A stretch of 64,000 nucleotides of DNA from Parcubacteria group bacterium Gr01-1014_8. GTDB lineage: Bacteria; Patescibacteriota; Minisyncoccia; Phycocordibacterales; UBA2100. The translations under genes and the position numbers were made by a program. The notes beneath the pieces are model-generated. The model was given only the letters and a program-made list of their open reading frames with translations, was not told where the DNA came from and did not search any database. The stretch covers positions 128,001-192,000 of the forward strand of contig VMGC01000001.1 in assembly GCA_007376385.1 (NCBI GenBank), read 5' to 3'. Below are positions 13,225 to 28,033 of the stretch, in pieces. Every line of letters starts with the position of its first letter. The first letter of the stretch is position 1.

Positions 13225-13299
13225 TGGTGCCCTCGGCAGGAATCGAACCTGCATTTCTTCCTTCGCAGGGAAGTGTCCTATCCATTGAACGACGAGAGC
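13225..13299 (-). tRNA. tRNA-Arg, anticodon GCG, with genomically encoded CCA.
   Basis: The reverse-complement fold gives acceptor GCTCTCG/CGAGGGC and D-arm GTTC-AATGGATA-GGAC. The anticodon stem-loop is CTTCC-CTGCGAA-GGAAG and the T-arm is GCAGG-TTCGATT-CCTGC. Discriminator A is followed by CCA. It is the only tRNA here with encoded CCA. Confidence 0.65.
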
Positions 13300-13985
13300 G
13301 GAGCGCCAGCAATCTTTTCCTGAATCGCGTACGCAAAGCCGAGTATCTCCTTTCTTATACTGCTGTCAAGGTAACAGATAAAACAGAGACCCATGAAATT
13401 CTGTCGGAATTTCCTCATCTTACTTCTCGGTTTGATCCAAATCTTGCCAGTTTGAGATAGCGGAATTTTTGTTAGTTTTGACCAGTAGTTCTTCGTCTTT
13501 TCTATATCGTGGTAGTGATGGACATGAATCCGCAATCGTAACCTTTTTTCGTCGATCGTGTAACACTTTCGGAGCAAAGCCATGTAAAGGAATATCATTT
13601 TAGGATCGGTGTTTGCGAAGCGGAGTCCCGAAACCTTGTTGTGTTTTGTCCCCTCCGCCCAATACAGCATCGCAAGAAGAGATTTCATATATGTCATATC
13701 TTTGTGCGTGATTAGTTTTGCCATTTCTTTTCCGCGCAAAACATAAACCTTGTCACGTTTTTCTTTTGCGGCTCGTAGAGAAGAGGCCGAGATTGTACGG
13801 GCACGTTTGAGATGTTCCAAGCGCAATGTTTCGGTAAATACTCCGGGGTATTTATGACCAAGCCATGTACACAATGTGCTCCTTGGTATCGACAGTTCTC
13901 TTTGAATTTGCAAATATGATTTTCCACTTCTGCGCAATTTTGCGGCAGTTTCTTTTACTGCTTCAGAATAAAAAGTACCACGCAT
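13278..13985 (-). CDS. HTH plus LAGLIDADG-like homing endonuclease family protein.
   Basis: An N-terminal HTH (GKSYLQIQRELSIPRSTLCTW) is present. A single LAGLIDADG-like motif (LLAMLYWAEGTKH) is present. The region is AT-rich. The 3' end overlaps tRNA-Arg (13225-13299) on the same strand. Confidence 0.5.
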   Translation of the reverse strand: MRGTFYSEAVKETAAKLRRSGKSYLQIQRELSIPRSTLCTWLGHKYPGVFTETLRLEHLKRARTISASSLRAAKEKRDKVYVLRGKEMAKLITHKDMTYMKSLLAMLYWAEGTKHNKVSGLRFANTDPKMIFLYMALLRKCYTIDEKRLRLRIHVHHYHDIEKTKNYWSKLTKIPLSQTGKIWIKPRSKMRKFRQNFMGLCFICYLDSSIRKEILGFAYAIQEKIAGAPLSSFNG

Positions 13986-14109
13986 AAAAACAATACGCTT
14001 CCAATCGTACAGTATAGATACACTACAGGTCAGTATCTATATTCGTTCTTTGTGGATAGCTGCGGTTTCCACAGATGTTCATTGCGCGAGGAACTTGTAG
14101 GGCGCATCA

Positions 14110-15984
14110 TTGGGGCACATGTCCCCCGGGAACTCTCTTGTTGCTGGAGTTGTTTTGGTTGGCCTCTTGGGTTCTCTTGCGGTTGCGCTGCAATCTTCTA
14201 ATCCCAATGTAGAATCCGTCGAACAAGTGGCTGCAGCAAAGTTTGCTGAAGGTCCGCCTCCGGCGATCAAGACAAAAACCGGTGGGACACAAGTCGGAAA
14301 AATGGAACAATGTGATTCTGGGACCGAGCATCGAATTATCGAGACGGGGACAGGACAAGGGTATAGATTTGAGCGAAAAGTGACAGATGCACAGTTAAAA
14401 AAAGATTGCGAAGAGAAAAAAAAGACAGGAGATATTTGCAAAGGCACGGTTAAGTTTTGCCTTGATCCAAGATTGCAAGGCGATGCGAAAGCAAAATCTG
14501 ACGCGGGCAAGGGCCCCGAAGTTGATTGCGGCAATATTAATGAAAAATGTGTCCCAGGAGCAGCAATAAATCCGAATGAGGTACGAAAGAGTCACGCGCC
14601 GGGTGTTTTGAAGGATAATTACTTGGCAGCGGTGAAGGCCGGAGACAAACAGATGGCGGATGCAATTAAGACAGCTGCGCAAGCGAATCCGGAATATAGT
14701 AAAGTGCTCGATTCGTTTATAGATGAGGATATAAAAGCCGTCGATGAAGATAAGGGACTTAAAGTTAAAGATTTAAATAGCGTTGAAGAGCAGCTTGCTA
14801 ATCTTAACGCGCAAGCAAATTGTGCCGGCGAGACAACCGATGAAGGGTATTCGGCCTGCATGATGAAGCAAGGACAAATGAAAGATGATCTTTTGAAACA
14901 ACAGTCAGATCTCAAAAAGCAGATTGTGGATCTTGAAGAACAAAAGAAACGACTTGCTGAGGCAAAAGTTGCCTTAAAGGCGCCTGCTGCCCCTCAAAGT
15001 CCACAATCACCTCAGAGTCCTCAATCTCCGCAAAGTCCACAGGCTCCCCAGTCGCCGCAAAGTCCTCAGAGTCCTTACAATCCGCAGTCACCGCAAAGCC
15101 CTCAATCGACGTTCCCTCAGCAAGGACAGCAACCGCAGGCGGGAAAAGGCGGCCAGCAAAAAGGTGGAGGCGGTGGGAGCCAACCACAGCCGCGGCCAAA
15201 CCCTGTCCAGCAGTGCCAGCAAGGGCAATATCAGTCGGTACAACAACAGCAGTATTCGTATTGTACGAACGGCGAGAATGGTCCCGGGATATACACGTAC
15301 AACAGCTACACGTGTAAGTATCAACTCGCGCAGCAGTGCCCGTACGGCTGCGCCGGCGTCGGCTCCGCTTCGAATCCGACTTACTACGTGACCAATCCCG
15401 GCGGGCAAAGCAATTCCTGTGCGCCTGCTCCAAACACGCAACCGCAACAGCCGACTGCGGAATTGAAATGCGGCGGCTCGGGCAAGCGTGATGTGGGCAT
15501 GAAGGTGCCAATCTCGTATACGTGCGGCAATTCGGTGAAAGCAACGGCAAGCGGATTCACGATCTCGAGCGAGACGACTTTGTCGGGCTCTGCTGAGCCG
15601 GAAATCAAGAAGCCTCCGCGAGGAACGAACATTGTCACCTACGGGCTTACGTGCACATCTTCAAATGGTCAGACTGCGACCGGAAAATGTGACGTCGAGA
15701 TAAACGTTACGTCGCTCATTTTTGTCTCAAACCCACAGAAACTTGATCTAAGCGAAGATGAAGATGACAAGGCGTTACTCGGATGGGTTACCAAAGGTAT
15801 GAAATCATGCCATGTCAGCAGCGATGCGTTCTCTGAATTCACGCAGGAGAACGAGAGTAACGATAGTGTGTCAGGCACAGTGAAAACTCCTGTCTTGACG
15901 GGTGACGCAACATTTGAATTGACGTGCGAGACGAATGGCGGTCAAGAAAAGTCGATTGAGCTCACCATCGACGTCGAGGCGTAA
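14110..15984 (+). CDS. Secreted Cys-rich protein with a coiled-coil, an SPQ tandem-repeat linker and two C-terminal Cys-framed beta domains (paralog family member 2).
   Basis: The signal peptide is MGHMSPGNSLVAGVVLVGLLGSLAVALQSS. The Cys cluster is CDSG...DCEEKKKTGDICKGTVKFC...DCGNINEKC. A (PQS)n repeat follows. The C-terminal motifs LLGWVTKGMKSCHVSS...ATFELTCETNGG...IELTIDV match the C-terminus of the 4274-5599 protein. Confidence 0.6.
   Translation: MGHMSPGNSLVAGVVLVGLLGSLAVALQSSNPNVESVEQVAAAKFAEGPPPAIKTKTGGTQVGKMEQCDSGTEHRIIETGTGQGYRFERKVTDAQLKKDCEEKKKTGDICKGTVKFCLDPRLQGDAKAKSDAGKGPEVDCGNINEKCVPGAAINPNEVRKSHAPGVLKDNYLAAVKAGDKQMADAIKTAAQANPEYSKVLDSFIDEDIKAVDEDKGLKVKDLNSVEEQLANLNAQANCAGETTDEGYSACMMKQGQMKDDLLKQQSDLKKQIVDLEEQKKRLAEAKVALKAPAAPQSPQSPQSPQSPQSPQAPQSPQSPQSPYNPQSPQSPQSTFPQQGQQPQAGKGGQQKGGGGGSQPQPRPNPVQQCQQGQYQSVQQQQYSYCTNGENGPGIYTYNSYTCKYQLAQQCPYGCAGVGSASNPTYYVTNPGGQSNSCAPAPNTQPQQPTAELKCGGSGKRDVGMKVPISYTCGNSVKATASGFTISSETTLSGSAEPEIKKPPRGTNIVTYGLTCTSSNGQTATGKCDVEINVTSLIFVSNPQKLDLSEDEDDKALLGWVTKGMKSCHVSSDAFSEFTQENESNDSVSGTVKTPVLTGDATFELTCETNGGQEKSIELTIDVEA
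14992..15108 (+). repeat. Tandem 9-bp (Pro-Gln-Ser) repeat inside the CDS, about 13 units.
   Basis: cctcaaagt ccacaatca cctcagagt cctcaatct ccgcaaagt ... encodes PQSPQSPQSPQSPQSPQAPQSPQSPQSPYNPQSPQSPQS. The units show synonymous variation. Confidence 0.75.
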
Positions 15985-15990
15985 CTCTTT

Positions 15991-16467
15991 CTAGAAGCCA
16001 AAGAATTCCAGTATTTTGTGTGCGAGAGGCTCTTTCATCGGGACTTCAGGCGCGCGTTCGCGCAAATATGCGCGTATTTCCTCGGGGTTTGCGCCGCCGA
16101 TGGGTATGACGAGATTCGGCGACATGAATTTAACCGTATCAACAAGAAGAAGCGGCTCTTCTTCTTGGTTTTCGGTCTCGACCCAGAACGCAAGTATTTC
16201 TTCGTATGTGTGCAATGTAGAGCTGACCGTGATGCCGCGCTCCGATATCTCGAAATCATGCAATTCGGGCGGGGTCTGCGCGATAAGCGCGATAACGCCT
16301 GCCGCAACAATAATGAGAAGTGCAAAGAGAACATTTCCAAAGAGGAGAGAGGTTACTGCCGCACACACTGCTATGATACCGAGCGCCCAAAACCAATCGC
16401 TCGAGCGTTCGATGTGTTCGTGTTCATATGCGCTCCAGCGTATCGGAGAAGCGGAAGATTCCGGCAT
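15991..16467 (-). CDS. Hypothetical membrane protein with 2 TM segments plus a soluble domain.
   Basis: The 158-aa ORF contains WFWALGIIAVCAAVTSLLFGNVLFALLIIVAAGVIALI. No known motif was found. Confidence 0.45.
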   Translation of the reverse strand: MPESSASPIRWSAYEHEHIERSSDWFWALGIIAVCAAVTSLLFGNVLFALLIIVAAGVIALIAQTPPELHDFEISERGITVSSTLHTYEEILAFWVETENQEEEPLLLVDTVKFMSPNLVIPIGGANPEEIRAYLRERAPEVPMKEPLAHKILEFFGF

Positions 16468-16542
16468 GACAACATTGTACTATGAGAAAAATTCCTCTTT
16501 TGATGTTGGTGCCGAGAATGTGAGCATGGTACAACAATCCGT

Positions 16543-16628
16543 GGAGGGGTCGCATAGCGGTCTAGTGCAGCGGTCTTGAAAACCGCCAGGTCTAATAGGC
16601 CTCGCGAGTTCGAATCTCGCCCCCTCCG
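16543..16628 (+). tRNA. tRNA-Ser, anticodon TGA.
   Basis: The acceptor is GGAGGGG/CCCCTCC and the anticodon stem-loop is GCGGT-CTTGAAA-ACCGC. There is a long variable arm. The T-arm is GCGAG-TTCGAAT-CTCGC with discriminator G. Confidence 0.85.
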
Positions 16629-16638
16629 CAGAAAACGT

Positions 16639-17049
16639 ATGACCCGGATCATGGTGTTTGGAACTTTCGATATGGTCCACGAGGGCCATGTAAATCTTTT
16701 TCAGCAAGCACGCTCTCTTGCGCCTGCCCCATTCTTGATTGTTTCAGTCGCCCGTGATGCTGTCGCGACGCGTATCAAGGGCTTCGCGCCGCAGCACCTT
16801 GAAGATGAGCGTCGCGCCCTTGTCAAGAAAAATGTGCTCGTAGATAAAGCAGTTCTCGGAGATAAAAAAGGTTTCGTTGAACATATTGCGCATGAAACTC
16901 CAGACATTATTGCGCTCGGATATGACCAGAGCGGTGAATACGTCGACGGGCTTGAAGCAAAACTAGGAGAGATGGGACTTTTCCCAAAGATAGTTCGGTT
17001 GCAGCCGTACAAGCCGGAGACTTTCAAAACGTCTATACTTCGGCAATAG
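16639..17049 (+). CDS. Cytidylyltransferase-like nucleotidyltransferase (FAD synthase/RibL-like, HxGH motif).
   Basis: [25 protein letters not shown] carries the (T/H)xGH signature. The track ORF at 16576 overlaps tRNA-Ser; the ATG at 16639 is the likely start. Confidence 0.65.
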
Positions 17050-17057
17050 TATCGGGT

Positions 17058-17447
17058 ATGCGTTATCTTGGAATTGATTATGGGACGAAGGGCGTCGGGC
17101 TCGCAATCTCTGACGAGAGTGCGCAGTTTGCATTTCCATTCGCTGTTTTTCCGAATGATCAAAAACTCCTCGAAAATATCTTGGACGTTATACACGATAT
17201 GAATATCGCTCAGATAATTGTCGGCGACACTCGTGCGGAAGGCGGAGCTTCGAATAGGATAACTGAAGAAGCGGAACAATTCATGTCTGACCTTGCTGGT
17301 GCGATCAACCTTCAAGTGCACCGTGTGCGCGAGGCGTGGAGCTCTGTCGAAGCGTCTCGTTTTGCACCGAAGGGAAAAGAAAGAGATGATGCGGCTGCTG
17401 CCGCGATCATTCTTCAGCGATTTTTAGATGTCCACAAAGCAGTGTAG
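17058..17447 (+). CDS. ruvX: Holliday junction resolvase-like protein YqgF/RuvX.
   Basis: MRYLGIDYGTKGVGLAISDESAQFAFPFAV matches the RNase H-like YqgF N-terminus. Confidence 0.8.
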   Translation: MRYLGIDYGTKGVGLAISDESAQFAFPFAVFPNDQKLLENILDVIHDMNIAQIIVGDTRAEGGASNRITEEAEQFMSDLAGAINLQVHRVREAWSSVEASRFAPKGKERDDAAAAAIILQRFLDVHKAV

Positions 17448-17471
17448 CTACTTCCACTGTAGTGATACGAT

Positions 17472-18404
17472 GTGAGAGTGAAAACCGCATCGTCAGGGCG
17501 AGTGCTCTCGGCTCATGTGTGGGGTTTTGTATTGGTTGCCACAATCAGTGTCGTCTTGGGTGCAGCACTGATACGCAACACCGTTCAAGCCGCACCGGCG
17601 ACTACAGACCCAGGGGCAAAATGCGGGGACCCGAAGTTTACGATACCGGACCCTCCATCAATGGAGTTGGTGAACGATGAACACTACAGCAAGGCAAAAT
17701 GGAAAGAATGCATCAAAAAAAGTTGCGAGAAGAAGATAGAAGGAAATTCGGGCTGTTTTGATAAAGACAGTGCAAAATGCAAAGAATACTGTAATAACAA
17801 GTTGACAACGAAAGGCAAAATTACAGGGCAGTGTTGCTCTGAGGTGGTTGAGAAGGGTGGAAAGGATATATGTACCGACGGGCCATGCCAGCCGCCACCG
17901 GGCAAGAAAGCGGGAGGTGAAAAACCTCCGACTGGGGGCGGCAAACCGCCTCCGGGAGGAGGCGAAAAGAAACCTGGGGGAGGTGAAGAGAAACCGCCCG
18001 GCGGTTTACCAGAGATTCCCAAAGGTGGCGGAGAAAAGAAAGAGACGCCGCCTCAAACTACACCTCAAGACCCGTGCGCAGTCGGTGGGGTAGATTGGAG
18101 TACTTCTAAGTGTCGAAATACGGCGCTCGATAAATTAACGGATCTTGCCGGAGATGCCTCGTCTGCGGTCACAGAATCGGCAAAAAAACTTGGCATGATG
18201 ATCATTGGTCCGGTACAGCATTTGTTGACAGGCGATGGACAAAATACTGCGGAACCCGCAACGTACAATGACGTGCCGTTTGCAGGGGTAACGGGCTTTG
18301 GAAATACCGGGACGTCGGGGACGGATGAGAGTTTTCTGCAAAGCGTGGCGGCTAGCCTTAGCCAGCTCTACGGCGCTCTCAATGATCTGTTCACCTGGTT
18401 CTGA
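17472..18404 (+). CDS. Secreted or membrane-anchored Cys-rich protein with a Gly/Pro/Lys/Glu repeat linker (paralog family member 3).
   Basis: The start is GTG. The signal anchor is VWGFVLVATISVVLGAALI. The Cys cluster is KCGDP...KWKECIKKSCEKK...GCFDKDSAKCKEYCNN...GQCCSEV...DICTDGPCQ. The linker is PPPGKKAGGEKPPTGGGKPPPGGGEKKPGGGEEKPPGG. Confidence 0.55.
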   Translation: MRVKTASSGRVLSAHVWGFVLVATISVVLGAALIRNTVQAAPATTDPGAKCGDPKFTIPDPPSMELVNDEHYSKAKWKECIKKSCEKKIEGNSGCFDKDSAKCKEYCNNKLTTKGKITGQCCSEVVEKGGKDICTDGPCQPPPGKKAGGEKPPTGGGKPPPGGGEKKPGGGEEKPPGGLPEIPKGGGEKKETPPQTTPQDPCAVGGVDWSTSKCRNTALDKLTDLAGDASSAVTESAKKLGMMIIGPVQHLLTGDGQNTAEPATYNDVPFAGVTGFGNTGTSGTDESFLQSVAASLSQLYGALNDLFTWF

Positions 18405-18419
18405 TCGCTGGTTGTTTGT

Positions 18420-18752
18420 ATGGATGCCATACAGTACGAGGATTTTGCAAAGTTGGATATTAGAGTAGGAACGATACTTGCCGCAGAACGCGTCCCGGAG
18501 ACCGACAAACTTATTAAGTGCACCGTCGATCTCGGAGAGTTGGGCCAAAGAACGATCGTTTCCGGCATCGCACAATTTCGAACACCCGAACAATTGGTCG
18601 GCAAACAGTGTCCGTACATCGTGAATTTAGCGCCTAAAACTTTGCGGGGCATTGAAAGTGAGGGGATGCTGCTGGCGGCTGCGCCTGAAGGGATCGGTCT
18701 TGCACTTTTGCATCCTGATGTTCAGCTTCCTCCCGGCACGAAACTTCGATAG
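18420..18752 (+). CDS. tRNA-binding protein (CsaA/Trbp111/EMAP-II-like OB fold).
   Basis: LDIRVGTILAAERVPETDKLIKCTVDLGE...RTIVSGI is the characteristic tRNA-binding OB-fold sequence. Confidence 0.75.
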   Translation: MDAIQYEDFAKLDIRVGTILAAERVPETDKLIKCTVDLGELGQRTIVSGIAQFRTPEQLVGKQCPYIVNLAPKTLRGIESEGMLLAAAPEGIGLALLHPDVQLPPGTKLR

Positions 18753-18810
18753 AAAAAATACTGGGGATGAGAATATTTTGCGTGAGATGCGGCAGGTTAT
18801 AATCCACGGT

Positions 18811-20432: not shown

Positions 20433-20433
20433 T

Positions 20434-21290: not shown

Positions 21291-21318
21291 GGTTAGAATT
21301 GAGTGTTATAATCCTCGG

Positions 21319-21627
21319 ATGCCATACAAATATCGAAAAGATTTGTACGCTGCTCAAAAGAGGCATCGTATACGAGTACGAGAAAAACTGCTCGGATTTC
21401 TTAGTACGAAACAGTGCATCGATTGCGGCGAGAAAGATCCAATTGTTTTGGATTTTGATCATATTGATAGAGCGAGTAAATCCAGAAATGTTGCGGGATT
21501 TTTATCGGGGCATTGGTCTTGGGAGTCTGTTCTAACAGAGATTCGTAAATGCGAAATCAGATGCGCCAATTGTCACCGGCGAAAAACCTATCATCAATTC
21601 GGTTCTTTTGGTAGAACTATCAAGTAG
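21319..21627 (+). CDS. HNH homing endonuclease, small and free-standing.
   Basis: CIDCGEKD...LDFDHIDRASKSRN...CANCHRRK is the HNH zinc-finger nuclease motif. The region is AT-rich. The stop abuts tRNA-Arg at 21627. Confidence 0.75.
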   Translation: MPYKYRKDLYAAQKRHRIRVREKLLGFLSTKQCIDCGEKDPIVLDFDHIDRASKSRNVAGFLSGHWSWESVLTEIRKCEIRCANCHRRKTYHQFGSFGRTIK

Positions 21628-21698
21628 CCCCCGTAGTTTAATGGATAAAACAGCGGACTTCTAAGCCGTTGATCGAGGTTCGATTCCTCGCGGGGGCA
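21627..21698 (+). tRNA. tRNA-Arg, anticodon TCT.
   Basis: The acceptor is GCCCCCG/CGGGGGC and the D-arm is GTTT-AATGGATA-AAAC. The anticodon loop is CTTCTAA. The T-arm is CGAGG-TTCGATT-CCTCG with discriminator A. Confidence 0.8.
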
Positions 21699-21720
21699 AA
21701 AAAATGTATAGTAGGAGTTC

Positions 21721-21793
21721 GGGCGGTTAGCTCAGTTGGTAGAGCAACCCCTTTACACGGGGAAGGTCACAGGTTCGAGTCCTGTATCGCCCA
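21721..21793 (+). tRNA. tRNA-Val, anticodon TAC.
   Basis: The acceptor is GGGCGGT/ATCGCCC and the D-arm is GCTC-AGTTGGTA-GAGC. The anticodon stem-loop is ACCCC-TTTACAC-GGGGA. The T-arm is ACAGG-TTCGAGT-CCTGT with discriminator A. Confidence 0.85.
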
Positions 21794-21960
21794 CAAAATA
21801 GTAAACTATTTTGTGGCGGTAAGTGCGCAAACTGATTTGCGCACGTCAGGACGAGAACGCCGGAGCGATGTCGCGCGAGGACGCGCGACCGCGAGGCGGT
21901 GCCCAGACCGAGGCGAGCGGCGGCGAGCGGAGAGTCGCGGGAGAGTCCTGTATCGCCCAC
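21794..21960 (+). repeat. tRNA-3'-linked conserved element, copy 2 (E2). It ends in an 18-nt duplicate of tRNA-Val positions 57-74.
   Basis: GAGTCCTGTATCGCCCAC occurs at 21777-21794 and again at 21943-21960. The element carries core motifs identical to E1: ACGCCGGAGCGATGT at 21857-21871, ACCGCGAGGCGGTGCCCAGAC at 21888-21908 and AGTCGCGGGAGA at 21933-21944. Confidence 0.6.
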
Positions 21961-22004
21961 TCTGGTTTGATAATGGTCCAGCGGTGTGTTACAGTCCTGG
22001 CCGT

Positions 22005-22451
22005 ATGGTTGCTAATAAAGTCGTTGTTTCTCCAGTCGACATGACCGCGCGAAAGGCGCTTGACGTGCGTCCGGGTGATACCGTGCGCGTGTTCCAAAAG
22101 ATAGAGGAGGAAAAGGGGAAGTACCGTCTTCAAGCGTTTGAAGGGTTGGTGTTGGCGCGAAAACACGGCACTGAAGCTGGCGCGACGTTCACTGTGCGAA
22201 AAGTGACAAGCGGTGTCGGTGTTGAAAAGATATTTCCGCTCTATTCTCCAATGATAGATAAAGTCGAGATAGTAAAGCGTGCTCGAGTGCGCCGTGCGAA
22301 GCTCTATTATATTCGAGACAAAGTTGCTCGCGAAGCGCGCCGACAACTTCGCCGCGCGAAAGTCGTGGTCCCGTTGCAAGGCGAAGTGGTTCTCGACGAT
22401 GCGGCCGAACCTGTCGCTGAAGAAGTTGGAACTCCAGAGAAAAGTGAGTAA
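22005..22451 (+). CDS. rplS: 50S ribosomal protein L19.
   Basis: VRPGDTVRVFQKIEEEKGKYRLQAFEGLVLARKHG...FTVRKVTSGVGVEKIFPLYSP is the L19 signature. The track ORF 21669..22451 has a spurious N-terminal extension across tRNA-Val. The real start is the ATG at 22005 (MVANKVVV). Confidence 0.85.
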   Translation: MVANKVVVSPVDMTARKALDVRPGDTVRVFQKIEEEKGKYRLQAFEGLVLARKHGTEAGATFTVRKVTSGVGVEKIFPLYSPMIDKVEIVKRARVRRAKLYYIRDKVAREARRQLRRAKVVVPLQGEVVLDDAAEPVAEEVGTPEKSE

Positions 22452-22521
22452 TCAGGGGGCCTCTTTTTATTTGTCCACAACTGGTAGACGCTATATACTT
22501 GAGTTATGTTATATTTGTGCG

Positions 22522-23199
22522 ATGGGGAAGCGAGGACCCAAGCCTGGATTCAAAATTACACGTCGTGTCTCAGAGAAATGGACGCCGGAATTAGCATATG
22601 CGATCGGGCTTCTTGCGACAGACGGTTGTCTTGCGCGGCACCAGTCGCTAATTGATCTGACGTCAAAAGATCAGGAGCAATTGAAGAATTTCTCAAAGTG
22701 TATTGGAATTCCACTTTTCATCGGCACGAAATTTGGTAGTCACCATAAGGGCGTATATTACAGAGTTCAATTTAAGAATCTCATCTTCTATAACTTTCTC
22801 CTCTCCGTTGGTCTGACGCCGGCAAAATCGAAAACGATGGGAGCGCTTGGGGTTCCGAAAGAATATTTCTGGGACTTTCTTCGCGGATCTTACGATGGTG
22901 ATGGATGTTCATATTCATATTGGGATCCACGATGGAAATCGAGTTTTATGTTTTACACGAGTTTTGTTTCCGCGAGTCGAGAGCATATTGATTGGTTGCA
23001 AAAAGAGATTTTTGCGCGGCTCAAAATCACTGGGCACATCACGCAGGCTAAAAGAAATATCTTGTACCAACTTAAGTACGCAAAAAGTGATTCCCTGAAG
23101 TTACTGAAAAAAATGTATCACTCGAGTAAAGTTATTTGTCTTTCGCGAAAAAGATTGAAAATAGAGCGAATTTTGAGTACAGTTAGCGAGAAGCTGTAA
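22522..23199 (+). CDS. LAGLIDADG homing endonuclease, double-motif and free-standing.
   Basis: Two LAGLIDADG motifs are present: YAIGLLATDGCL and FLRGSYDGDGCS. The region is AT-rich. The gene ends 10 nt before tRNA-Leu. Confidence 0.75.
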   Translation: MGKRGPKPGFKITRRVSEKWTPELAYAIGLLATDGCLARHQSLIDLTSKDQEQLKNFSKCIGIPLFIGTKFGSHHKGVYYRVQFKNLIFYNFLLSVGLTPAKSKTMGALGVPKEYFWDFLRGSYDGDGCSYSYWDPRWKSSFMFYTSFVSASREHIDWLQKEIFARLKITGHITQAKRNILYQLKYAKSDSLKLLKKMYHSSKVICLSRKRLKIERILSTVSEKL

Positions 23200-23208
23200 A
23201 GCTTTGAT

Positions 23209-23293
23209 GCGCAGGTGGCGAAATTTGGTACACGCACTACCTTGAGGTGGTAGCGCCCTAACGGGCATGGGAGTTCGAGTCTCCCCCTGCGCA
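23209..23293 (+). tRNA. tRNA-Leu, anticodon GAG.
   Basis: The acceptor is GCGCAGG/CCTGCGC and the anticodon stem-loop is CTACC-TTGAGGT-GGTAG. There is a long variable arm. The T-arm is GGGAG-TTCGAGT-CTCCC with discriminator A. Confidence 0.85.
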
Positions 23294-23476
23294 CAGAATT
23301 GGACTCTTTGAGTATTTTTCTCGAATCTGTCGTTGTTTTGCGGCGTTTTTTGGCGGTTCTAACATCGTCTAATCCACAGGAGGTTGAAAATTGCAACTTT
23401 TTGAAAATAGCCCCAACTATAAAAGTGTTTGGGCGGTTCTAACTGTCTTGGCAGATTTCCTATAAGATATCTAAGT

Positions 23477-24301
23477 ATGGGGTTCTTTGTTGTTGGTCTA
23501 ATTCTTGTGGCAGGGTCATGGTTTTTGGCATGGACGCAGATATCTCCTATCGCGGTGTATCATTTCCCGCCTTTGTGGCTTGGCTACATTCTCACTGTAA
23601 ATGGACTATGCGAATTGTTGTTTAAGGACTCCACAATTCGGCGAATGGGGCGGGGATTTCTTCTGCTGTTCATTTTTTCTATCCCACTATGGTGGTTTTT
23701 TGAATATCTAAATACCATTGTCCAAAACTGGTATTATGTATTTCCTCAGGACTGGTCGCAACCAACTCAGATTTTCTTGAAAACTATTAGTTTCTCAACT
23801 GTTATTCCCGCCGCATATTCGAGCGCCTTTTTTGTCTACCAGCTTTTAAAAAATACATTGAGTGCTTGGAGTACCCGCATCTTGCTCAATCGATCTTTAA
23901 TTTTTGGAATGGGCATTTTTACTTTTCTGCTTATAGTTTTGTATCCAAAATTGTTCTTTCCGCTTGTTTGGATTGCGCCATTACTGATGCTTGAAGCCTT
24001 TAACAGCCGGTTTGGATTTTACTCTCTACTGGACGAGCTTAAAGAAGGTAAATGGTCTATGATTGTCGCATTTTCTCTAGGCACTCTACTAACGGGTTTC
24101 TTTTGGGAAATGTGGAACTTCTACGCATTTCCAAAATGGTATTACACAATTCCACTTTTCGATTTTTGGAGGGTCTTTGAAATGCCAATACTCGGGTATG
24201 GCGGATACCTGCCGTTTGGGCTTTTTGTTTTTACCTTTTCAGCCACGGCCGCTGGTTTACTGCGAAAAATTGGAGTTCAGTCGATAATCCCGCGGTTCTA
24301 A
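23477..24301 (+). CDS. Polytopic aromatic-rich membrane protein; hypothetical.
   Basis: About 8 predicted TM helices are very rich in F/W/Y (FWEMWNFYAFPKWYYTIPLFDFW). The region is AT-rich. The stop overlaps a GCGGTTCTAAC motif. Confidence 0.5.
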   Translation: MGFFVVGLILVAGSWFLAWTQISPIAVYHFPPLWLGYILTVNGLCELLFKDSTIRRMGRGFLLLFIFSIPLWWFFEYLNTIVQNWYYVFPQDWSQPTQIFLKTISFSTVIPAAYSSAFFVYQLLKNTLSAWSTRILLNRSLIFGMGIFTFLLIVLYPKLFFPLVWIAPLLMLEAFNSRFGFYSLLDELKEGKWSMIVAFSLGTLLTGFFWEMWNFYAFPKWYYTIPLFDFWRVFEMPILGYGGYLPFGLFVFTFSATAAGLLRKIGVQSIIPRF

Positions 24302-24334
24302 CTTCGCTCATGATGATATGTTACACTGTGAGCT

Positions 24335-24544
24335 ATGAAAGTTGAATTTGAAAAAGAGACGGATGGTCGCTGGATCGCAGAAATACCGGAGTTGCCAGGA
24401 GTTATGGCGTATGGCAAGACAAAACAGGAAGCTCAGCGAAAAGTGTATGCCGTGGCTTTACGCACCCTCGCCGATACGGTAGAGCGTGGCACTACTCCGG
24501 CACCTGTCTCTCGAATCTTCAAGTATGGAATGGCCAGCCGTTAA
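24335..24544 (+). CDS. hicB: HicB-family antitoxin (UPF0150/RNase H-like fold).
   Basis: MKVEFEKETDGRWIAEIPELPGVMAYGKTKQEAQRKVYAVAL matches the HicB N-terminal domain. It overlaps the hicA start by about 20 nt. Confidence 0.6.
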   Translation: MKVEFEKETDGRWIAEIPELPGVMAYGKTKQEAQRKVYAVALRTLADTVERGTTPAPVSRIFKYGMASR

Positions 24545-24734
24545 GGCTTCGAAGGTTCTTAAGGCGCTTATTAATCTCGGCTGGAACATCAAGCGACAGA
24601 AAGGCTCACATCGGATTTTAGGAAAGTCGGGCTGGAAAGATATTACGTTTGCTTTTCATGATAGAGAAGAAATAGGGCCGCGTATGCTCGCCCGTATTGC
24701 AAAACATACTGACTTAACACCGGAAGATTTATAA
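24525..24734 (+). CDS. hicA: HicA-family mRNA interferase toxin.
   Basis: KASKVLKALINLGWNIKRQKGSHRILGKSGW matches the HicA/YcfA dsRBD-like motif (xxLxxxGWxxxRQKGSH). Confidence 0.7.
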   Translation: MEWPAVKASKVLKALINLGWNIKRQKGSHRILGKSGWKDITFAFHDREEIGPRMLARIAKHTDLTPEDL

Positions 24735-25002
24735 AACGTTTACAACTTACTCAAAAGTCTGCACATTGGTGATTTCTCACTTCGTTCATTAATCCGCACC
24801 AAATGTAACTTGTTCGGAAATGACTGCTCCGCGCGGCGGCTTCCTTAGTTCCGTTCAAAGTAGGTTCGCGCAAAGTGTATAATTACAGCACAAAAAGATA
24901 AGCGTTGCCGTCGTTTGCTATGATTGCGTCATGGCACTCTTTACCCCGGTTAGATAGCTTCGCATCTAATGGGGCAGGCGGGGGAAAGGGTTTTACATTT
25001 TT

Positions 25003-25560
25003 ATGGCGTTATTTACCGGCAAAGGCGATCAGGGCACAACGAAACTCTTTGATACGCAATCTGGTGCGCGGGTGTCGAAAGCGTCGCCAATTTTTGAGAC
25101 GTTGGGGATGCTCGATGAGTTGAACACGCTGGTCGGGTGGTGCAAGGTAGCCGTCCCTGACGATTTTGTTGTGCAGGGACGTACGGTGAAAGAGAGGCTA
25201 CACGAAGTACAGGATTTTTTGTTCACGATACAGGCGGAAGTTGCCGGCGCTGGGAAATTTGTCCCGCAAGAAAGTGTTGATGCGCTAAGCATGTTTATCA
25301 ACGAGATTGAAAAAGAATTGCCTCCTATCAAAACCTTTTTAGTTCCCGGCGGGACGGAATTATCTGCGCGGTTTGATGTAACACGTGCAGTGTCGCGCAG
25401 AGCGGAGAGGCGGCTGGTGAATGTCCACGAATCAGGCGAGAGAACTGTTTCAGGATCAAGTCGCGCATATGCAAACAGGCTTTCCTCTTTATTCTATGCG
25501 CTTACGAGACTTACAAATCATCGAGCGGGCGTCAGCGAAAGTCCTCCACATTACAAATGA
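25003..25560 (+). CDS. ATP:cob(I)alamin adenosyltransferase, PduO/MMAB type.
   Basis: MALFTGKGDQGTTKLFDTQSGARVSKASPIFETLGMLDELNTLVGW is the PduO-type N-terminal signature. Confidence 0.75.
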   Translation: MALFTGKGDQGTTKLFDTQSGARVSKASPIFETLGMLDELNTLVGWCKVAVPDDFVVQGRTVKERLHEVQDFLFTIQAEVAGAGKFVPQESVDALSMFINEIEKELPPIKTFLVPGGTELSARFDVTRAVSRRAERRLVNVHESGERTVSGSSRAYANRLSSLFYALTRLTNHRAGVSESPPHYK

Positions 25561-26654
25561 TACGACGCTATCTACCAAGAAGTACGGAAGAACTCATATC
25601 GTGGTACGAACGATATATTTCGCCATTTTCTCTCTTGGTGGGATTCACCATAGATAATCTTGCGATACGTCAAATAGATCTGTGGCTCTCAAGTTTGGTG
25701 CTCGCAGGGTATCTTTCGCTTGCTGCTATCGGGACCATACTCATCAATCTTGTTGGATCGGGGAGATTGCGGCATCAAGTCGCTCTTACTGTCGCTCCAT
25801 TTATTCCAGTCGTTGTGCAATTCGCTTTCGGAGGGCTCTTTAGTGGTTTTGTGATCCTCTACTCACGCAGTGCAGCGATCGCAGTAAGCTGGGTCTTCGT
25901 AGTTCTTCTTGCAGCACTGCTCTTAGGGAACGAGCGTTTTCGCACATTTTATACCCGCTTTCCTTTCCAAATAGGGATCCTCTTTTTCGGCTTGCTCTCG
26001 TTCATGATATTTTATGTGCCGTTCATCACGAAAACGATAGGTCCGTGGATGTTTGTCATCAGTGGTGCGGTCAGCGTTACGCTGATAGCACTCTATTTAT
26101 ACATATCCTCGTTTTATATCCGCGAGCTTGTAAAAGAGACACGCACTACGGTTGCACGGACGATAGCCGGCATATTCTTTTTCATCATGATCCTTTATTT
26201 TCTCGGCGCTATTCCGCCGCTCCCTCTCTCCCTTCGAGATGTTGGCGTGCTCCACTCGATCCAGAGGACAGGCGATACATATGCAGTCACGTATGAATCC
26301 AGAACATGGTACGAAATGTATTTTCGTTACAAACAGGTGTACCATCTTGCGCCCGGCGAGGTTGTGTACGTGTACACCGCTATTTTTGCACCCAGTGGTA
26401 TATCTACCGGCATCGTCCATGAGTGGCAGAAATACGATGCGCTGAAGGGCAGTTGGGTCACTGAACATGTGCTCACCTTTCCAATACAGGGTGGTCGTGA
26501 AGGGGGTTACCGTGGGTACTCTCTAAAACGGGATGTAAGCCCGGGGGAATGGCGTGTGAATGTGATGACGGACTATGGGCAGCTGATCGGCCGTGTTGGG
26601 TTCCGAGTCGAAAAGGTTGATGCTCCCGTGGCTCTACAGAGCGATAAGTTCTAA
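25557..26654 (+). CDS. Membrane protein with a C-terminal extracytoplasmic domain; hypothetical.
   Basis: About 7 TM helices are followed by a soluble C-terminus. No catalytic motif is present. Confidence 0.5.
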   Translation: MIRRYLPRSTEELISWYERYISPFSLLVGFTIDNLAIRQIDLWLSSLVLAGYLSLAAIGTILINLVGSGRLRHQVALTVAPFIPVVVQFAFGGLFSGFVILYSRSAAIAVSWVFVVLLAALLLGNERFRTFYTRFPFQIGILFFGLLSFMIFYVPFITKTIGPWMFVISGAVSVTLIALYLYISSFYIRELVKETRTTVARTIAGIFFFIMILYFLGAIPPLPLSLRDVGVLHSIQRTGDTYAVTYESRTWYEMYFRYKQVYHLAPGEVVYVYTAIFAPSGISTGIVHEWQKYDALKGSWVTEHVLTFPIQGGREGGYRGYSLKRDVSPGEWRVNVMTDYGQLIGRVGFRVEKVDAPVALQSDKF

Positions 26655-26807
26655 CCCCCTCCTGTACACCTGCATATCTTGACGCTGTTGTAGGGGGGTT
26701 CACAATCAATCCAGGTCGACGTATTGGAGCGGCAGTAGATTGCACATGTTGCGATTCCGAATTCCAATATTGGTTACATTTTAATAACATAAAGACATAT
26801 AACCAGT

Positions 26808-27197
26808 ATGGTTCAGACACTTGCGTGGGTTTTCGGGGTCGTTTTGACACTTGTCGGTGTTCTCGGATTCGTTCCGGGCATCACGAGTGATGGGATGCTT
26901 CTCGGTATCTTCATGGTGGATGGATTGCACAGTGTGATACACCTTGTCTCCGGTCTCGCAGCGCTCGCTGCAGCGTGGGGCATATGGAGTACACGTATGT
27001 ATTTCCAGGTGTTCGGTGTCATCTACGGTCTTGTAACTGTCATTGGATTCCTTCAGGGGGATACGGTGCTCGGCCTCATTGGAATTAACATGGCGGATAA
27101 CGTGCTTCATCTTTTGATAGCTGCAGTCGCGCTTTATGCGGGCTTCGGTATGAAAGAAGACGGTATGGGTATGAGTACGCCTCGGCCGGCGATGTAG
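26808..27197 (+). CDS. DUF4383-family small membrane protein.
   Basis: MVQTLAWVFGVVLTLVGVLGFVPG...LLGIFMVDGLHSVIHLVSGL matches the DUF4383 pattern. Confidence 0.55.
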   Translation: MVQTLAWVFGVVLTLVGVLGFVPGITSDGMLLGIFMVDGLHSVIHLVSGLAALAAAWGIWSTRMYFQVFGVIYGLVTVIGFLQGDTVLGLIGINMADNVLHLLIAAVALYAGFGMKEDGMGMSTPRPAM

Positions 27198-27326
27198 CCT
27201 CTCTGCGAAAGGTTAGTATACACACCGCCCAGGAAGGGCGGTGTTGTCGTAGGGAGCACACGCACGATTGTGGTATATCCACAAGTATATGTAGTAATCG
27301 ATGGTACTTGGAGGAATAATTAATGA

Positions 27327-27824
27327 GTGGCTCTTCTGAACTGCATTGTATGTGACAAGGAATTCAAAAGAAAACCTTTTCTCATACGCCGCAGTGGAGG
27401 TAAATATTGCTCAAATACTTGCCATTATTCGGATGCCCGCACTGGTAAAAAGATTTCCTGCTCAACTTGCGGCAAAGAGGTCTACAGGACTCCACGCAGA
27501 CTTAAACTCTCAAAAAGTAAAACTTATTTTTGCAACAAATCCTGCCAAACGTTATGGCGGAATCAATACTTTGTTGGGCGGAGACATAAGAACTGGATCC
27601 ATGGACGTGCTGCGTATCGCACAGTGCTCGCTCGAATAGGCCGAGAGAAAATATGCGAATCGTGTAAGACAAAAGATACTCGTGTTCTTGCAATTCATCA
27701 TATTGATCGAGTAAGAACGAACATTGATCCAAGCAATCTGGTGTGGCTTTGCCATAATTGCCATTTCCTCCTTCATCATTATGATGTGGGACGAGAGCGT
27801 GGTTTACTGAGATCGCATTCTTGA
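27327..27824 (+). CDS. HNH homing endonuclease with N-terminal zinc ribbons, free-standing.
   Basis: CxxC pairs are present (CIVCDKEF, CSTCGKEV). The HNH core is CESCKTKDTRVLAIHHIDR...NLVWLCHNCH. The gene ends 4 nt before tRNA-His. Confidence 0.75.
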   Translation: MALLNCIVCDKEFKRKPFLIRRSGGKYCSNTCHYSDARTGKKISCSTCGKEVYRTPRRLKLSKSKTYFCNKSCQTLWRNQYFVGRRHKNWIHGRAAYRTVLARIGREKICESCKTKDTRVLAIHHIDRVRTNIDPSNLVWLCHNCHFLLHHYDVGRERGLLRSHS

Positions 27825-27828
27825 TGAT

Positions 27829-27902
27829 GGTGGTCGTAGCTCAACTGGTAGAGCTCCTGGTTGTGGTCCAGGCGGTTGTGGGTTCAAGTCCCATCGATCA
27901 CC
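27829..27902 (+). tRNA. tRNA-His, anticodon GTG, with encoded G-1.
   Basis: G-1 is paired with discriminator C. The acceptor is GTGGTCG/CGATCAC and the anticodon stem-loop is CCTGG-TTGTGGT-CCAGG. The T-arm is GTGGG-TTCAAGT-CCCAT. Confidence 0.85.
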
Positions 27903-28033
27903 CTGATATTGGTGAAAGAAATATGAAGCGGGAGCGTCTGTACACACGGACACTTTTACCGTTCTGCTATAATGGGGTCAAATAGTGGCCCTAATCGTAG
28001 CCTTATAAATTATTAAGCTTATATAATTACTCT

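What the first reader, a model, noticed from the sequence alone, without database searches (positions are those of the whole stretch)
13225..27902. All four free-standing homing endonucleases sit immediately 5' of, and co-oriented with, a tRNA gene (HE-tRNA tandem modules)
Four modules show the same arrangement:
- LAGLIDADG-like 13278-13985 (-) overlaps and precedes tRNA-Arg(GCG) at 13225-13299 (-).
- HNH 21319-21627 abuts tRNA-Arg(TCT) at 21627, which is followed by tRNA-Val.
- LAGLIDADG 22522-23199 ends 10 nt before tRNA-Leu at 23209.
- HNH 27327-27824 ends 4 nt before tRNA-His at 27829.

That is four of four endonucleases, from two unrelated nuclease families, in the same arrangement, all in AT-richer DNA than their surroundings. 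This is unlikely to be chance.

Three explanations are possible. The region just upstream of tRNA genes may be a preferred homing target. The endonucleases may exploit tRNA promoters or processing, with the tRNA cleaved from the 3' end of the endonuclease transcript by RNase P. Or the modules may be mobile as units.
Basis: partly seen in the sequence, partly recalled or inferred. Interest (0 to 1): 0.7.

Follow-up and report, generated by a model that had tools for sequence, protein, structure and literature searches.

The report
Homing endonucleases parked before tRNA genes
In this ultra-small (Patescibacteria/CPR) bacterium and its relatives, selfish DNA-cutting-enzyme genes from several unrelated families sit exactly at the front edge of particular tRNA genes. 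They apparently use the disposable tRNA leader as a harmless landing site, a habit known in outline from phage T4 but not described for bacterial chromosomes.

Summary
All four nuclease ORFs (two HNH, one two-motif LAGLIDADG, one HTH plus single LAGLIDADG-fold domain) end between +9 and -22 nt of the 5' end of a co-oriented tRNA. No other endonuclease gene or remnant was found in the 64 kb.

In 80 syntenic loci of related Paceibacteria the tRNAs are fixed but the nucleases are sporadic. 28 of 36 nuclease ORFs abut a tRNA 5' end, against 4.4% of other ORFs.

Each family keeps to one tRNA: HE2 to Arg(TCT), HE3 to Leu(GAG), HE4 to His, HE1 to Arg(GCG). Diverged clades have switched to other tRNAs. 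For HE1, 73 of 80 metagenomic loci show the arrangement, and in 62% of those the stop codon lies inside the tRNA. Promoter-like sites are enriched upstream of HE1 ORFs, not between ORF and tRNA.

Best reading: free-standing homing endonucleases target tRNA 5' boundaries and live in the pre-tRNA leader. This is a chromosomal, multi-family variant of T4 SegB-type intronless homing. Cleavage, co-transcription and RNase P release are inferred, not shown. Movement of HE and tRNA as one unit is not supported.

The parts
13278..13985 (-). HE1: 235-aa protein with an N-terminal HTH and a single LAGLIDADG-fold domain (motif MLYWAEGTK). Its last 22 nt, including the TAG stop, lie inside tRNA-Arg(GCG).
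13225..13299 (-). tRNA-Arg(GCG), partner of HE1
   Evidence: Rfam 63.7 bits. It occupies the same syntenic position in related genomes that lack HE1.
14011..14039 (-). Promoter-like site (TAGATA-17-TATACT) 26 nt upstream of the HE1 start codon. It is a candidate promoter for the HE1-tRNA transcription unit.
   Evidence: Such sites are enriched upstream of HE1 homologues. The upstream motif is shared with the HE-less alleles L001 and L006.
21304..21312 (+). Extended -10 element TGTTATAAT, ending 6 nt before the HE2 ATG. This implies a leaderless or near-leaderless HE2 mRNA.
   Evidence: Read directly from the sequence. Function is inferred.
21319..21627 (+). HE2: 102-aa HNH endonuclease. The last base of its TAG stop is base 1 of tRNA-Arg(TCT).
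   Evidence: PHROG HNH 2e-23. The family has at least 1017 clusters, with top hits from Patescibacteria. All homologues examined lie 5' of tRNA-Arg(TCT).
21627..21698 (+). tRNA-Arg(TCT), partner of HE2. It is followed by tRNA-Val at 21721-21794.
22471..22499 (+). Promoter-like site (TTGTCC-17-TATACT) upstream of HE3, between rplS and HE3
22522..23199 (+). HE3: 225-aa LAGLIDADG endonuclease with two motifs, inserted between rplS (22005-22451) and tRNA-Leu(GAG)
   Evidence: PF14528 25.8 bits. PHROG 4e-27. Catalytic D/G residues are invariant in 17 homologues. The family has at least 3358 clusters.
23155..23183 (+). Promoter TTGAAA-17-TACAGT embedded in the last codons of HE3, 26 nt before tRNA-Leu
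   Evidence: It is conserved in 9 of 15 HE3 genes through fixed synonymous choices (TTG AAA ... NNT AYA GTN).
23209..23294 (+). tRNA-Leu(GAG), partner of HE3
   Evidence: In genomes without HE3 it lies 15-190 nt after rplS.
27269..27279 (+). Extended -10-like element TGTGGTATATC upstream of HE4. It sits at the distance from the preceding terminator hairpin at which HE-less alleles carry the tRNA-His -10 box.
   Evidence: (comparison with L002 and L004). This is an inference.
27327..27824 (+). HE4: 165-aa zinc-ribbon plus HNH endonuclease, ending 5 nt before tRNA-His
   Evidence: PHROG HNH 5e-21. Four CxxC pairs and the HNH residues are invariant. Homologues lie 5' of tRNA-His or tRNA-Ser(TGA).
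27830..27903 (+). tRNA-His(GTG), partner of HE4 (G-1 at 27829)

Best explanation
The four ORFs are free-standing homing endonuclease genes. Each one's landing site is the 5' boundary of one specific housekeeping tRNA gene.

Proposed mechanism:
1. Each enzyme recognises a long site anchored in the conserved 5' part of its cognate tRNA gene.
2. It cuts alleles that lack the ORF.
3. Repair from an ORF-bearing DNA copy (probably taken up by transformation) writes the cassette in. The cassette lands between the tRNA's promoter or upstream gene and tRNA position +1.
4. The ORF then forms, or replaces, the pre-tRNA 5' leader. It is transcribed together with the tRNA, and RNase P removes it from the tRNA, so the insertion costs the host little.
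5. Some lineages (HE3) instead carry a replacement tRNA promoter in their last codons.
6. Copies later decay, and sites are re-invaded.

Shown here:
- the anatomy of the modules;
- nuclease family and fold, and conservation of catalytic residues;
- sporadic presence at fixed tRNA loci;
- tRNA specificity of families and clades;
- junctions at tRNA +1, with stop codons often inside the tRNA;
- where promoter-like sites lie.

Inferred: DNA cleavage, the recognition site, the route of transfer, co-transcription and RNase P release.
For: - Window anatomy and family assignment.
- Enrichment in related genomes: in 80 syntenic rplS loci, 28 of 36 nuclease ORFs end within -45 to +40 nt of a co-oriented tRNA 5' end, against 65 of 1474 other ORFs (Fisher 4e-29).
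- Low occupancy per tRNA: Leu 15 of 73, His 7 of 62, Arg(TCT) 4 of 57, Ser(TGA) 4 of 43.
- Filled against empty alleles: L034 has 735 nt where L030 has 41 nt, with the right edge 7 nt before tRNA-Leu. L016 has 1384 nt where L014 has 89 nt, with the right edge 3 nt before tRNA-His.
- HE1 family: 73 of 80 metagenome loci have a co-oriented tRNA directly after the ORF, and in 45 of those 73 the stop codon lies inside the tRNA.
- HE1 tree: the tRNA partner is clade-specific. Fitch parsimony needs 15 changes, against a mean of 39.7 and a minimum of 32 in permutations.
- Unselected validation: 5 of 6 HNH or LAGLIDADG ORFs that happened to lie in the HE1 loci sit 4-15 nt 5' of tRNA-Ser or tRNA-His.
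- A further nuclease superfamily: GIY-YIG ORFs lie 3 nt before tRNA-Val and tRNA-Ser.
- Repeated invasion: tandem HE4 pairs are only 40-43% identical.
- Decay: HE1 fragments in L016 and HE3 3' remnants in L005, L006, L029 and L075.
- Foreign composition: low GC.
- Promoter-like sites: upstream of the HE1 ORF 58% against 13% in controls (p 2e-14); within its last 75 nt only 15% against 6%.
- No intron or ribozyme in the region.
- Precedent: T4 SegB recognises a tRNA-gene motif and is co-transcribed with tRNAs (PMC2330249).
Against: - There is no biochemical or transcript evidence.
- No near-identical nuclease copies were seen in divergent genomes (HE3 pairs are at most 72% identical). Recent horizontal transfer is therefore inferred from patchiness, not observed.
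- HE2 is unusually conserved (65-78% identity over the best 120 of >=1017 clusters). This could mean a host-beneficial role.
- The test for immunity polymorphisms in tRNAs was inconclusive and is confounded by phylogeny. L034 (filled) and L030 (empty) have identical tRNA-Leu.
- The window-wide count of promoter-like sites does not exceed shuffled controls (19 against 17.5).
- Some HE1 copies sit divergently next to tRNA-Val or after a tRNA.
- The enrichment statistics treat related genomes as independent.
Confidence: 0.7

Rival explanations
1. The ORFs are domesticated or host-beneficial genes linked to tRNA function, and they were inherited vertically with repeated loss. For example, HE1 could be a WhiA-like DNA-binding regulator of the tRNA operon, or the nucleases could serve tRNA-gene maintenance or defence. 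On this view they are not mobile.
Against: - Three unrelated nuclease superfamilies share the same position.
- Occupancy is only 5-20% at conserved tRNA loci.
- The ORFs have low GC relative to the host.
- There are pseudogenes, remnants and tandem invasions.
- HE1 keeps the catalytic Glu-Gly of the LAGLIDADG motif, which WhiA lacks. The WhiA point is from my own knowledge.
- Clades have switched between tRNAs.
Confidence: 0.12
2. The nuclease and its tRNA move together as one cassette, so the tRNA gene is cargo. This is the first reader's third option, and resembles SegB spreading neighbouring tRNA genes.
For: L016 carries two HE4 copies, and its tRNA-His differs markedly from that of its roughly 90%-identical relative L014. 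Its downstream flank also differs. SegB co-converts flanking tRNA genes.
Against: - The tRNAs occupy the same syntenic positions in genomes with and without the nuclease.
- tRNA-Leu identity does not track HE3 identity once host distance is removed (partial r -0.14, permutation p 0.81).
- L034 and L030 have identical tRNA-Leu although one is filled and the other empty.
Confidence: 0.08
3. There is no site-specific targeting. Nuclease genes land anywhere, and in these compact genomes only insertions into pre-tRNA leaders are harmless enough to survive. The pattern is then a survivorship filter plus vertical descent.
For: The genomes are gene-dense, and tRNA leaders are removed by RNase P whatever their length (established knowledge). 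Eukaryotic retrotransposons show that tRNA upstream regions are safe havens in compact genomes (PMC5006619).
Against: - Clades are tied to a single tRNA identity across distant genomes and different gene neighbourhoods.
- Distinct lineages re-invaded the same junction.
- Junctions are precise to a few nt.
- Homing endonucleases are site-specific by nature.
Confidence: 0.08

Closest known systems
Phage T4 SegB, a free-standing GIY-YIG homing endonuclease in the T4 tRNA gene cluster (PMC2330249)
   Same: - It is a free-standing endonuclease gene lying among tRNA genes.
- It recognises a conserved tRNA-gene motif.
- It is absent from related genomes.
- It is transcribed as part of the tRNA precursor.
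   Different: - SegB is a phage gene of the GIY-YIG family. It recognises the T-psi-C region at tRNA 3' ends with relaxed specificity.
- Here the genes are chromosomal and belong to HNH and LAGLIDADG families (GIY-YIG ORFs occur only in two related loci).
- Each is tied to one housekeeping tRNA and placed exactly at its 5' end, often with the stop codon inside the tRNA.
HNH endonuclease genes inside phage and mycobacterial tRNA gene arrays (PMC6409571, PMC6582537)
   Same: The HE4-type zinc-ribbon HNH family is also tRNA-associated in viral contigs: 66 of 109 homologues lie within 150 nt of a tRNA.
   Different: In phages all orientations occur (23 downstream co-oriented, 16 upstream co-oriented, 15 and 12 anti-oriented), within dense accessory tRNA arrays. 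In the Patescibacteria the ORF is upstream of and co-oriented with a single essential tRNA. The LAGLIDADG relatives in phages are not tRNA-linked (1 of 94).
Intron-encoded homing endonucleases of Patescibacteria rRNA and tRNA genes (PMC11270868, PMC13011429)
   Same: The host phylum is the same, the nuclease families (LAGLIDADG, HNH) are the same, and the targets are conserved RNA genes.
   Different: Those nucleases sit in self-splicing introns inside the gene. Here no intron or ribozyme is present, the tRNAs are uninterrupted, and removal would depend on ordinary RNase P leader processing. Neither paper mentions nucleases upstream of tRNAs.
Eukaryotic retrotransposons that integrate upstream of tRNA genes, such as Ty1/Ty3 and Dictyostelium TRE5-A (PMC5006619, PMC6101501)
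   Same: Selfish elements in compact genomes use the region just upstream of tRNA genes as a safe site.
   Different: The mechanism is entirely different: reverse transcription with targeting through RNA polymerase III factors, against DNA cleavage and recombinational repair. This is analogy only.
WhiA, a LAGLIDADG-derived transcription factor with an HTH domain
   Different: WhiA has two degenerate LAGLIDADG domains and a C-terminal HTH. HE1 has an N-terminal HTH, one domain, and an invariant Glu-Gly at the motif end, like the second motif of I-DmoI.

Membership tests
LAGLIDADG homing endonucleases (HE3, 22522-23199) | Profile match above the curated threshold | tested here: met
   PF14528 scores 25.8 bits against a cutoff of 22.5. 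phrog_4645 endonuclease 4e-27.
LAGLIDADG homing endonucleases (HE3, 22522-23199) | Two LAGLIDADG motifs, each ending in a conserved acidic residue plus Gly | tested here: met
   The motifs are LLATDG and FLRGSYDGDG. G29, D34, G35, G122, D125 and G128 are invariant in 17 homologues.
LAGLIDADG homing endonucleases (HE1, 13278-13985) | Profile match to a LAGLIDADG family | tested here: not met
   Pfam gives only weak HTH hits. NCBIfam and PHROGs give none. A PDB profile search matches only HTH domains. hhalign against the HE3 family gives E 0.04 over the motif helix only.
LAGLIDADG homing endonucleases (HE1, 13278-13985) | LAGLIDADG fold with a catalytic acidic residue at the end of the motif helix | tested here: met
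HNH endonucleases (HE2, 21319-21627; HE4, 27327-27824) | Profile match above the curated threshold | tested here: inconclusive
   Pfam HNH and HNH_3 scores are below their cutoffs: 17.0 and 15.9 against 21.4, and 20.2 against 24.8. PHROG HNH families match strongly: 2e-23 and 5e-21. Related tRNA-linked ORFs pass the Pfam cutoff.
HNH endonucleases (HE2, 21319-21627; HE4, 27327-27824) | Conserved His-Asn-His catalytic core with Cys zinc ligands | tested here: met
   In HE4, H124, H125, N132/N137, N144, H146, H150 and four CxxC pairs are invariant. HE2 has DFDHID...CANCH.
Free-standing homing endonuclease genes (intronless homing, T4 Seg/Mob type) | The ORF is not inside an intron or intein, and the neighbouring gene is intact | tested here: met
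   Rfam finds only intact tRNAs (50-68 bits) and no intron or ribozyme in 12500-28500.
Free-standing homing endonuclease genes (intronless homing, T4 Seg/Mob type) | Presence or absence at the same locus among related genomes | tested here: met
   Filled and empty pairs: L034 with L030, and L016 with L014.
Free-standing homing endonuclease genes (intronless homing, T4 Seg/Mob type) | The enzyme cleaves the ORF-less allele near the insertion point and drives gene conversion | not testable with these tools
   This needs a cleavage assay and a genetic cross.
Free-standing homing endonuclease genes (intronless homing, T4 Seg/Mob type) | Co-conversion of flanking markers | tested here: inconclusive
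   HE3 and tRNA-Leu do not co-vary. L016 and L014 differ in tRNA-His next to the insert.
SegB-like tRNA-gene-targeting endonucleases | Co-transcription with the tRNA genes | not testable with these tools
   Indirect evidence only: the ORF overlaps or abuts the tRNA, and promoter-like sites are enriched upstream of the ORF.
SegB-like tRNA-gene-targeting endonucleases | GIY-YIG catalytic domain | tested here: not met
   The four window ORFs are HNH or LAGLIDADG. GIY-YIG ORFs in the same position occur only in L036 and L028.

The most novel reading that the evidence does not exclude
The pre-tRNA 5' leader is a general 'splicing-free' niche for homing endonucleases in Patescibacteria, with host RNase P doing the job that self-splicing introns or inteins do elsewhere. 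Thousands of genes from at least five families would live there, including a large unnamed HTH-LAGLIDADG family. Many of these ORFs have their stop codon inside (or beyond) the tRNA. RNase P cleavage would therefore turn the message into a non-stop mRNA, so endonuclease output would be throttled by competition between translation and tRNA maturation.
Probability: 0.35. Interest if true: 0.78.

Novelty: new variant of a known kind. Interest (0 to 1): 0.62.

Why it matters
- **How these genes persist.** It would explain how homing endonuclease genes survive in tiny, gene-dense bacterial chromosomes without introns or inteins. They would occupy the one kind of transcribed sequence that every cell already trims off precisely.
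- **An unnamed family.** It defines a very large protein family (HE1 type, thousands of members, no Pfam model). Genomic position predicts both its function and its DNA target, namely the 5' part of a named tRNA gene.
- **New enzymes.** It offers many natural meganucleases and nickases whose likely targets can be read from the genome.
- **Evidence of DNA exchange.** It gives markers of DNA exchange among uncultivated Patescibacteria.
- **Annotation.** ORFs that overlap tRNA genes are easily discarded as artefacts.

Tried and rejected
- **Exact look-up of HE2:** the protein is not on record.
- **HE1 against the PDB by sequence:** both the single-sequence and the profile search gave only HTH hits.
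- **Self-immunity polymorphisms in tRNAs next to nucleases:** there are suggestive D-stem differences. For example, all 4 HE2-linked tRNA-Arg(TCT) genes carry an A-T or T-A pair where the consensus has C13-G22. The result is confounded by phylogeny, and the L034/L030 pair contradicts it, so I make no claim.
- **A conserved internal promoter in HE1:** weak (15% against 6%, p 0.03) and limited to the closest relatives.
- **Unit mobility (Mantel-type test):** negative.
- **Intron or ribozyme context:** none found.
- **Other nucleases or remnants in the window, including upstream of tRNA-Lys and tRNA-Ser:** none found.
- **Whole-genome census of the source genome:** not possible, because only 10 kb flanks can be fetched.
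- **Literature:** no paper in the library describes endonuclease genes at tRNA 5' ends in Patescibacteria. Absence from this library is not proof of absence.

Full report
**Source and observation**

The window comes from Parcubacteria group bacterium Gr01-1014_8; the first ORF is 100% identical to a protein of that MAG. ARAGORN finds seven tRNAs, and Rfam confirms those in the region with 50-68 bits.

| Module | ORF | tRNA partner | ORF end to tRNA 5' end |
|---|---|---|---|
| HE1 | 13278-13985 (-) | Arg(GCG) 13225-13299 (-) | -22 nt; the TAG stop is in the D-loop |
| HE2 | 21319-21627 | Arg(TCT) 21627-21698 | -1 nt; shares one base |
| HE3 | 22522-23199 | Leu(GAG) 23209-23294 | +9 nt |
| HE4 | 27327-27824 | His 27830-27903 | +5 nt (+4 if G-1 is counted) |

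tRNA-Lys (6778) and tRNA-Ser (16543) have no such neighbour.

**Are they nucleases?**

- HE3 passes Pfam LAGLIDADG_3 (25.8 bits, cutoff 22.5). It has two motifs whose acidic and Gly residues are invariant in 17 homologues.
- HE2 and HE4 fall below the Pfam HNH cutoffs but match PHROG HNH families at 2e-23 and 5e-21. HE4 homologues keep every HNH residue and four CxxC zinc ribbons.
- The invariant HE1 motif MLYWAEG resembles the second motif of I-DmoI. That comparison is from my own knowledge.

So the family labels hold, with HE1 at fold level only. No fifth nuclease gene or remnant exists in the window. The four ORFs have GC 0.41-0.43 against an ORF mean of 0.50 (sd 0.034), and are among the six lowest in the window.

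**Comparison with relatives**

I fetched 80 loci (1.16 Mb) around rplS from other Paceibacteria. The order tRNA-Arg(GCG), Ser(TGA), Arg(TCT), Val, rplS, Leu(GAG), His is conserved.

An iterated profile search with the four proteins against all ORFs of these loci found 36 relatives. Of these, 28 end within -45 to +40 nt of a co-oriented tRNA 5' end. Only 65 of 1474 other gene-like ORFs do so (4.4%; Fisher 4e-29). The genomes are related, so this p-value overstates independence.

The families track tRNA identity:
- HE2 is always before Arg(TCT).
- HE3 is before Leu(GAG) (14 loci), and two distant relatives are before Ser(TGA).
- HE4 is before His, and distant relatives are before Ser(TGA).
- HE1 is before Arg(CCG). 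In four loci it sits divergently beside tRNA-Val.

Most genomes lack the ORF at each tRNA:

| tRNA | Loci with the nuclease |
|---|---|
| Leu(GAG) | 15 of 73 |
| His | 7 of 62 |
| Arg(TCT) | 4 of 57 |
| Ser(TGA) | 4 of 43 |

Small GIY-YIG ORFs (PF01541) lie 3 nt before tRNA-Val (L036) and tRNA-Ser (L028). They add a third nuclease superfamily to the pattern.

**Filled and empty sites**

- L034 has 735 nt where L030 has 41 nt. Homology resumes 7 nt before tRNA-Leu.
- L016 has 1384 nt, with two HE4 genes, where its roughly 90%-identical relative L014 has 89 nt. Homology resumes 3 nt before tRNA-His.
- The tandem HE4 genes in L016 and L054 are only 40-43% identical to each other. They therefore record separate invasions of the same junction.
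- Decay is visible. HE1 is split into fragments in L016. Several 'empty' tRNA-Leu alleles (L005, L006, L029, L075) retain the last 50 nt or so of an HE3 gene.

**Wider sampling**

- *HE1.* A metagenome scan found at least 583 relatives. Of the best 80 loci, 73 have a co-oriented tRNA directly after the ORF: Arg(GCG) 32, Arg(TCT) 26, Arg(CCG) 4, Trp 3, Gln 3, Ala 2, and single cases for other tRNAs. In 45 of those 73 the stop codon lies inside the tRNA or beyond it. The commonest overlap is 10 nt for Arg(TCT), where the TAG comes from tRNA bases 8-10.
- *HE1 tree.* On a neighbour-joining tree the tRNA partner is clade-specific. Fitch parsimony needs 15 changes, against a mean of 39.7 and a minimum of 32 in 2000 permutations.
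- *HE1 family size.* A profile search of 1.84 billion representatives gives 3,648 proteins at E<=1e-10.
- *Incidental hits.* In the HE1 loci, six HNH or LAGLIDADG ORFs turned up by chance, and five lie 4-15 nt 5' of tRNA-Ser(TGA) or tRNA-His.
- *HE2.* The family has at least 1017 clusters at 65-78% identity among the best 120, and every source name given is patescibacterial. Three members at 13 places all precede tRNA-Arg(TCT), even where the upstream gene differs.
- *HE3.* The family has at least 3358 clusters. Four members at 6 places were examined; five places show rplS-HE3-tRNA-Leu(GAG) with gaps of 2-9 nt, and the sixth contig ends 37 nt after the ORF.

**Controls in viral contigs**

Relatives of HE4 are often in phage tRNA arrays: 66 of 109 lie within 150 nt of a tRNA. 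They occur in every orientation. Relatives of HE3 are almost never near a tRNA (1 of 94). The strict 'upstream, co-oriented, single housekeeping tRNA' geometry therefore belongs to the patescibacterial chromosomal copies.

**Expression**

With overlaps or gaps below 10 nt there is no room for a promoter or terminator between ORF and tRNA.

- For HE1, sigma-70-like sites are strongly enriched in the 110 nt upstream of the ORF: 58% score at least 9 of 12, against 13% in control windows inside the ORF (p 2e-14). They most often end 24-29 nt before the start codon. In the last 75 nt before the tRNA the enrichment is weak (15% against 6%).
- In the window, promoter-like or extended -10 elements lie upstream of all four ORFs: 14039-14011 (-), 21304-21312, 22471-22499 and 27269-27279.
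- HE-less alleles carry their tRNA -10 box 9-20 nt before the tRNA. Upstream of tRNA-Arg(GCG), the window shares the motif 'tgtggaaa...caaagaa' with L001 and L006. In those two loci a -10 box and a 9-nt leader follow; in the window the HE1 cassette follows. This fits insertion into the pre-tRNA leader.
- HE3 differs. Nine of 15 genes carry TTGAAA-N17-TAYAGT within the codons for R-L-K-I-x-K-x-L-x-I/T-V, with fixed synonymous choices. In the window this element is at 23155-23183. The cassette thus supplies a promoter for tRNA-Leu, and the remnants kept in 'empty' alleles cover exactly this part.

Co-transcription and RNase P release remain inferences. The precedent is T4 segB, which is made as part of the tRNA precursor.

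**Unit mobility**

tRNA-Leu similarity does not follow HE3 similarity once rplS similarity is removed (partial r -0.14, p 0.81). The tRNAs stay in place in genomes without nucleases. HE3 similarity is only weakly tied to host similarity (rho 0.25). The one hint of co-conversion is the divergent tRNA-His in L016.

**Comparison with what is known**

- *T4 SegB.* This is the closest system: a free-standing GIY-YIG endonuclease in a phage tRNA cluster that recognises the T-psi-C motif at tRNA 3' ends (PMC2330249).
- *HNH genes in tRNA arrays.* These are noted in phage and mycobacterial arrays (PMC6409571, PMC6582537).
- *Patescibacterial introns.* Work on introns in rRNA and tRNA genes of this phylum concerns nucleases inside self-splicing introns. 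It does not mention tRNA-flanking ORFs.
- *Literature searches.* Seven searches found no description of the present arrangement.

I therefore rate it a new variant of a known kind. It is chromosomal and spans several families. Each family is specific to one tRNA and sits exactly at its 5' boundary, and thousands of members share the arrangement.

**Verdict**

Confidence in the homing-into-the-leader model is about 0.7. The missing evidence is biochemical and transcriptomic.

Noticed in passing
window 6849-7008 (after tRNA-Lys) and 21795-21960 (after tRNA-Val; 18-nt repeat at 21777-21794 and 21943-21960); also 18 tRNAs in L003-L078: 20 of 355 tRNAs are followed by a GC-rich element that ends 78-261 nt downstream (mostly 145-200 nt) in an exact repeat of the tRNA's own 3' end (15-22 nt in 19 cases, 43 nt in one). 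The layout is: a terminator-like hairpin; a copy of the T-stem 5' strand; about 90 nt with two hairpins and conserved strands (GCCGGAGCG ... CGAGGCGGGGTCGCGG ... CTGTGAC); then the T-stem 3' strand plus the acceptor 3' strand. RNAalifold on 10 copies gives 22 pairs, 18 of them with compensatory changes. There is no Rfam match. It could be a small element integrated at tRNA 3' ends that carries a structured RNA, or a tRNA-derived RNA gene. It is unexplained.
   Followed up: partly
window 13225-13299 and every related locus (L001-L160): The CGN-reading arginine tRNA has anticodon GCG throughout this clade, and no ACG tRNA was seen. To my knowledge bacteria normally use ACG edited to ICG by TadA, so these genomes may lack that editing.
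   Followed up: no
window 23429-24734: Directly 3' of tRNA-Leu lie a low-GC (0.41) 290-aa ORF with no Pfam family and a HicB-like/HicA toxin-antitoxin pair (PF21748, PF07927). None of the three has a homologue in the 80 related loci. This is probably a separate insertion on the 3' side of the tRNA.
   Followed up: partly
L016 5275-6307 and L054 5723-6716: Two HE4-type HNH genes lie in tandem before tRNA-His. They are only 40-43% identical within a locus, while the tRNA-proximal copies of the two loci are 58% identical. This points to successive invasions of one junction.
   Followed up: yes
L016 6314-6386: The tRNA-His next to the double HE4 insert has an aberrant T-loop (AGCATAA instead of TTCGAnT). 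It differs strongly from that of the roughly 90%-identical genome L014, and 2.9 kb around it is replaced. It could be a resistant or decaying tRNA, or a co-converted one.
   Followed up: partly
L016 1512-2346 against L014 9073-9211; also L033, L046, L047, L157: A clade of HE1 sits divergently, 52-126 nt from the 5' end of tRNA-Val(TAC). Between L014 and L016 the tRNA-Val gene is inverted (100% identical over 77 nt) with a fragmented HE1 gene beside it. tRNA-Val orientation flips repeatedly across the 80 loci.
   Followed up: partly
L005 about 6316-6501; L006, L029, L075 upstream of tRNA-Leu: Alleles without HE3 keep the last 50 nt or so of an HE3 gene. This is the part that carries the embedded TTGAAA-N17-TAYAGT promoter, as if the remnant survives because it now drives tRNA-Leu.
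   Followed up: partly
window 21304-21321: The HE2 start codon lies 6 nt after a perfect extended -10 element (TGTTATAAT), with no ribosome-binding site in between. This suggests a leaderless mRNA.
   Followed up: no
proteins P0399, P0432, P0443, P0450, P0473: Some HE1-family representatives are 440-576 aa long with two or three matched stretches. They may be fused or tandem HE1 domains, or merged gene calls.
   Followed up: no
window 18652-21290: The genes just upstream of the HE2 module encode PilM (Pfam). Homologous loci also encode PilN and PilO. This is type IV pilus machinery of the kind linked to DNA uptake, a possible route for donor DNA.
   Followed up: no
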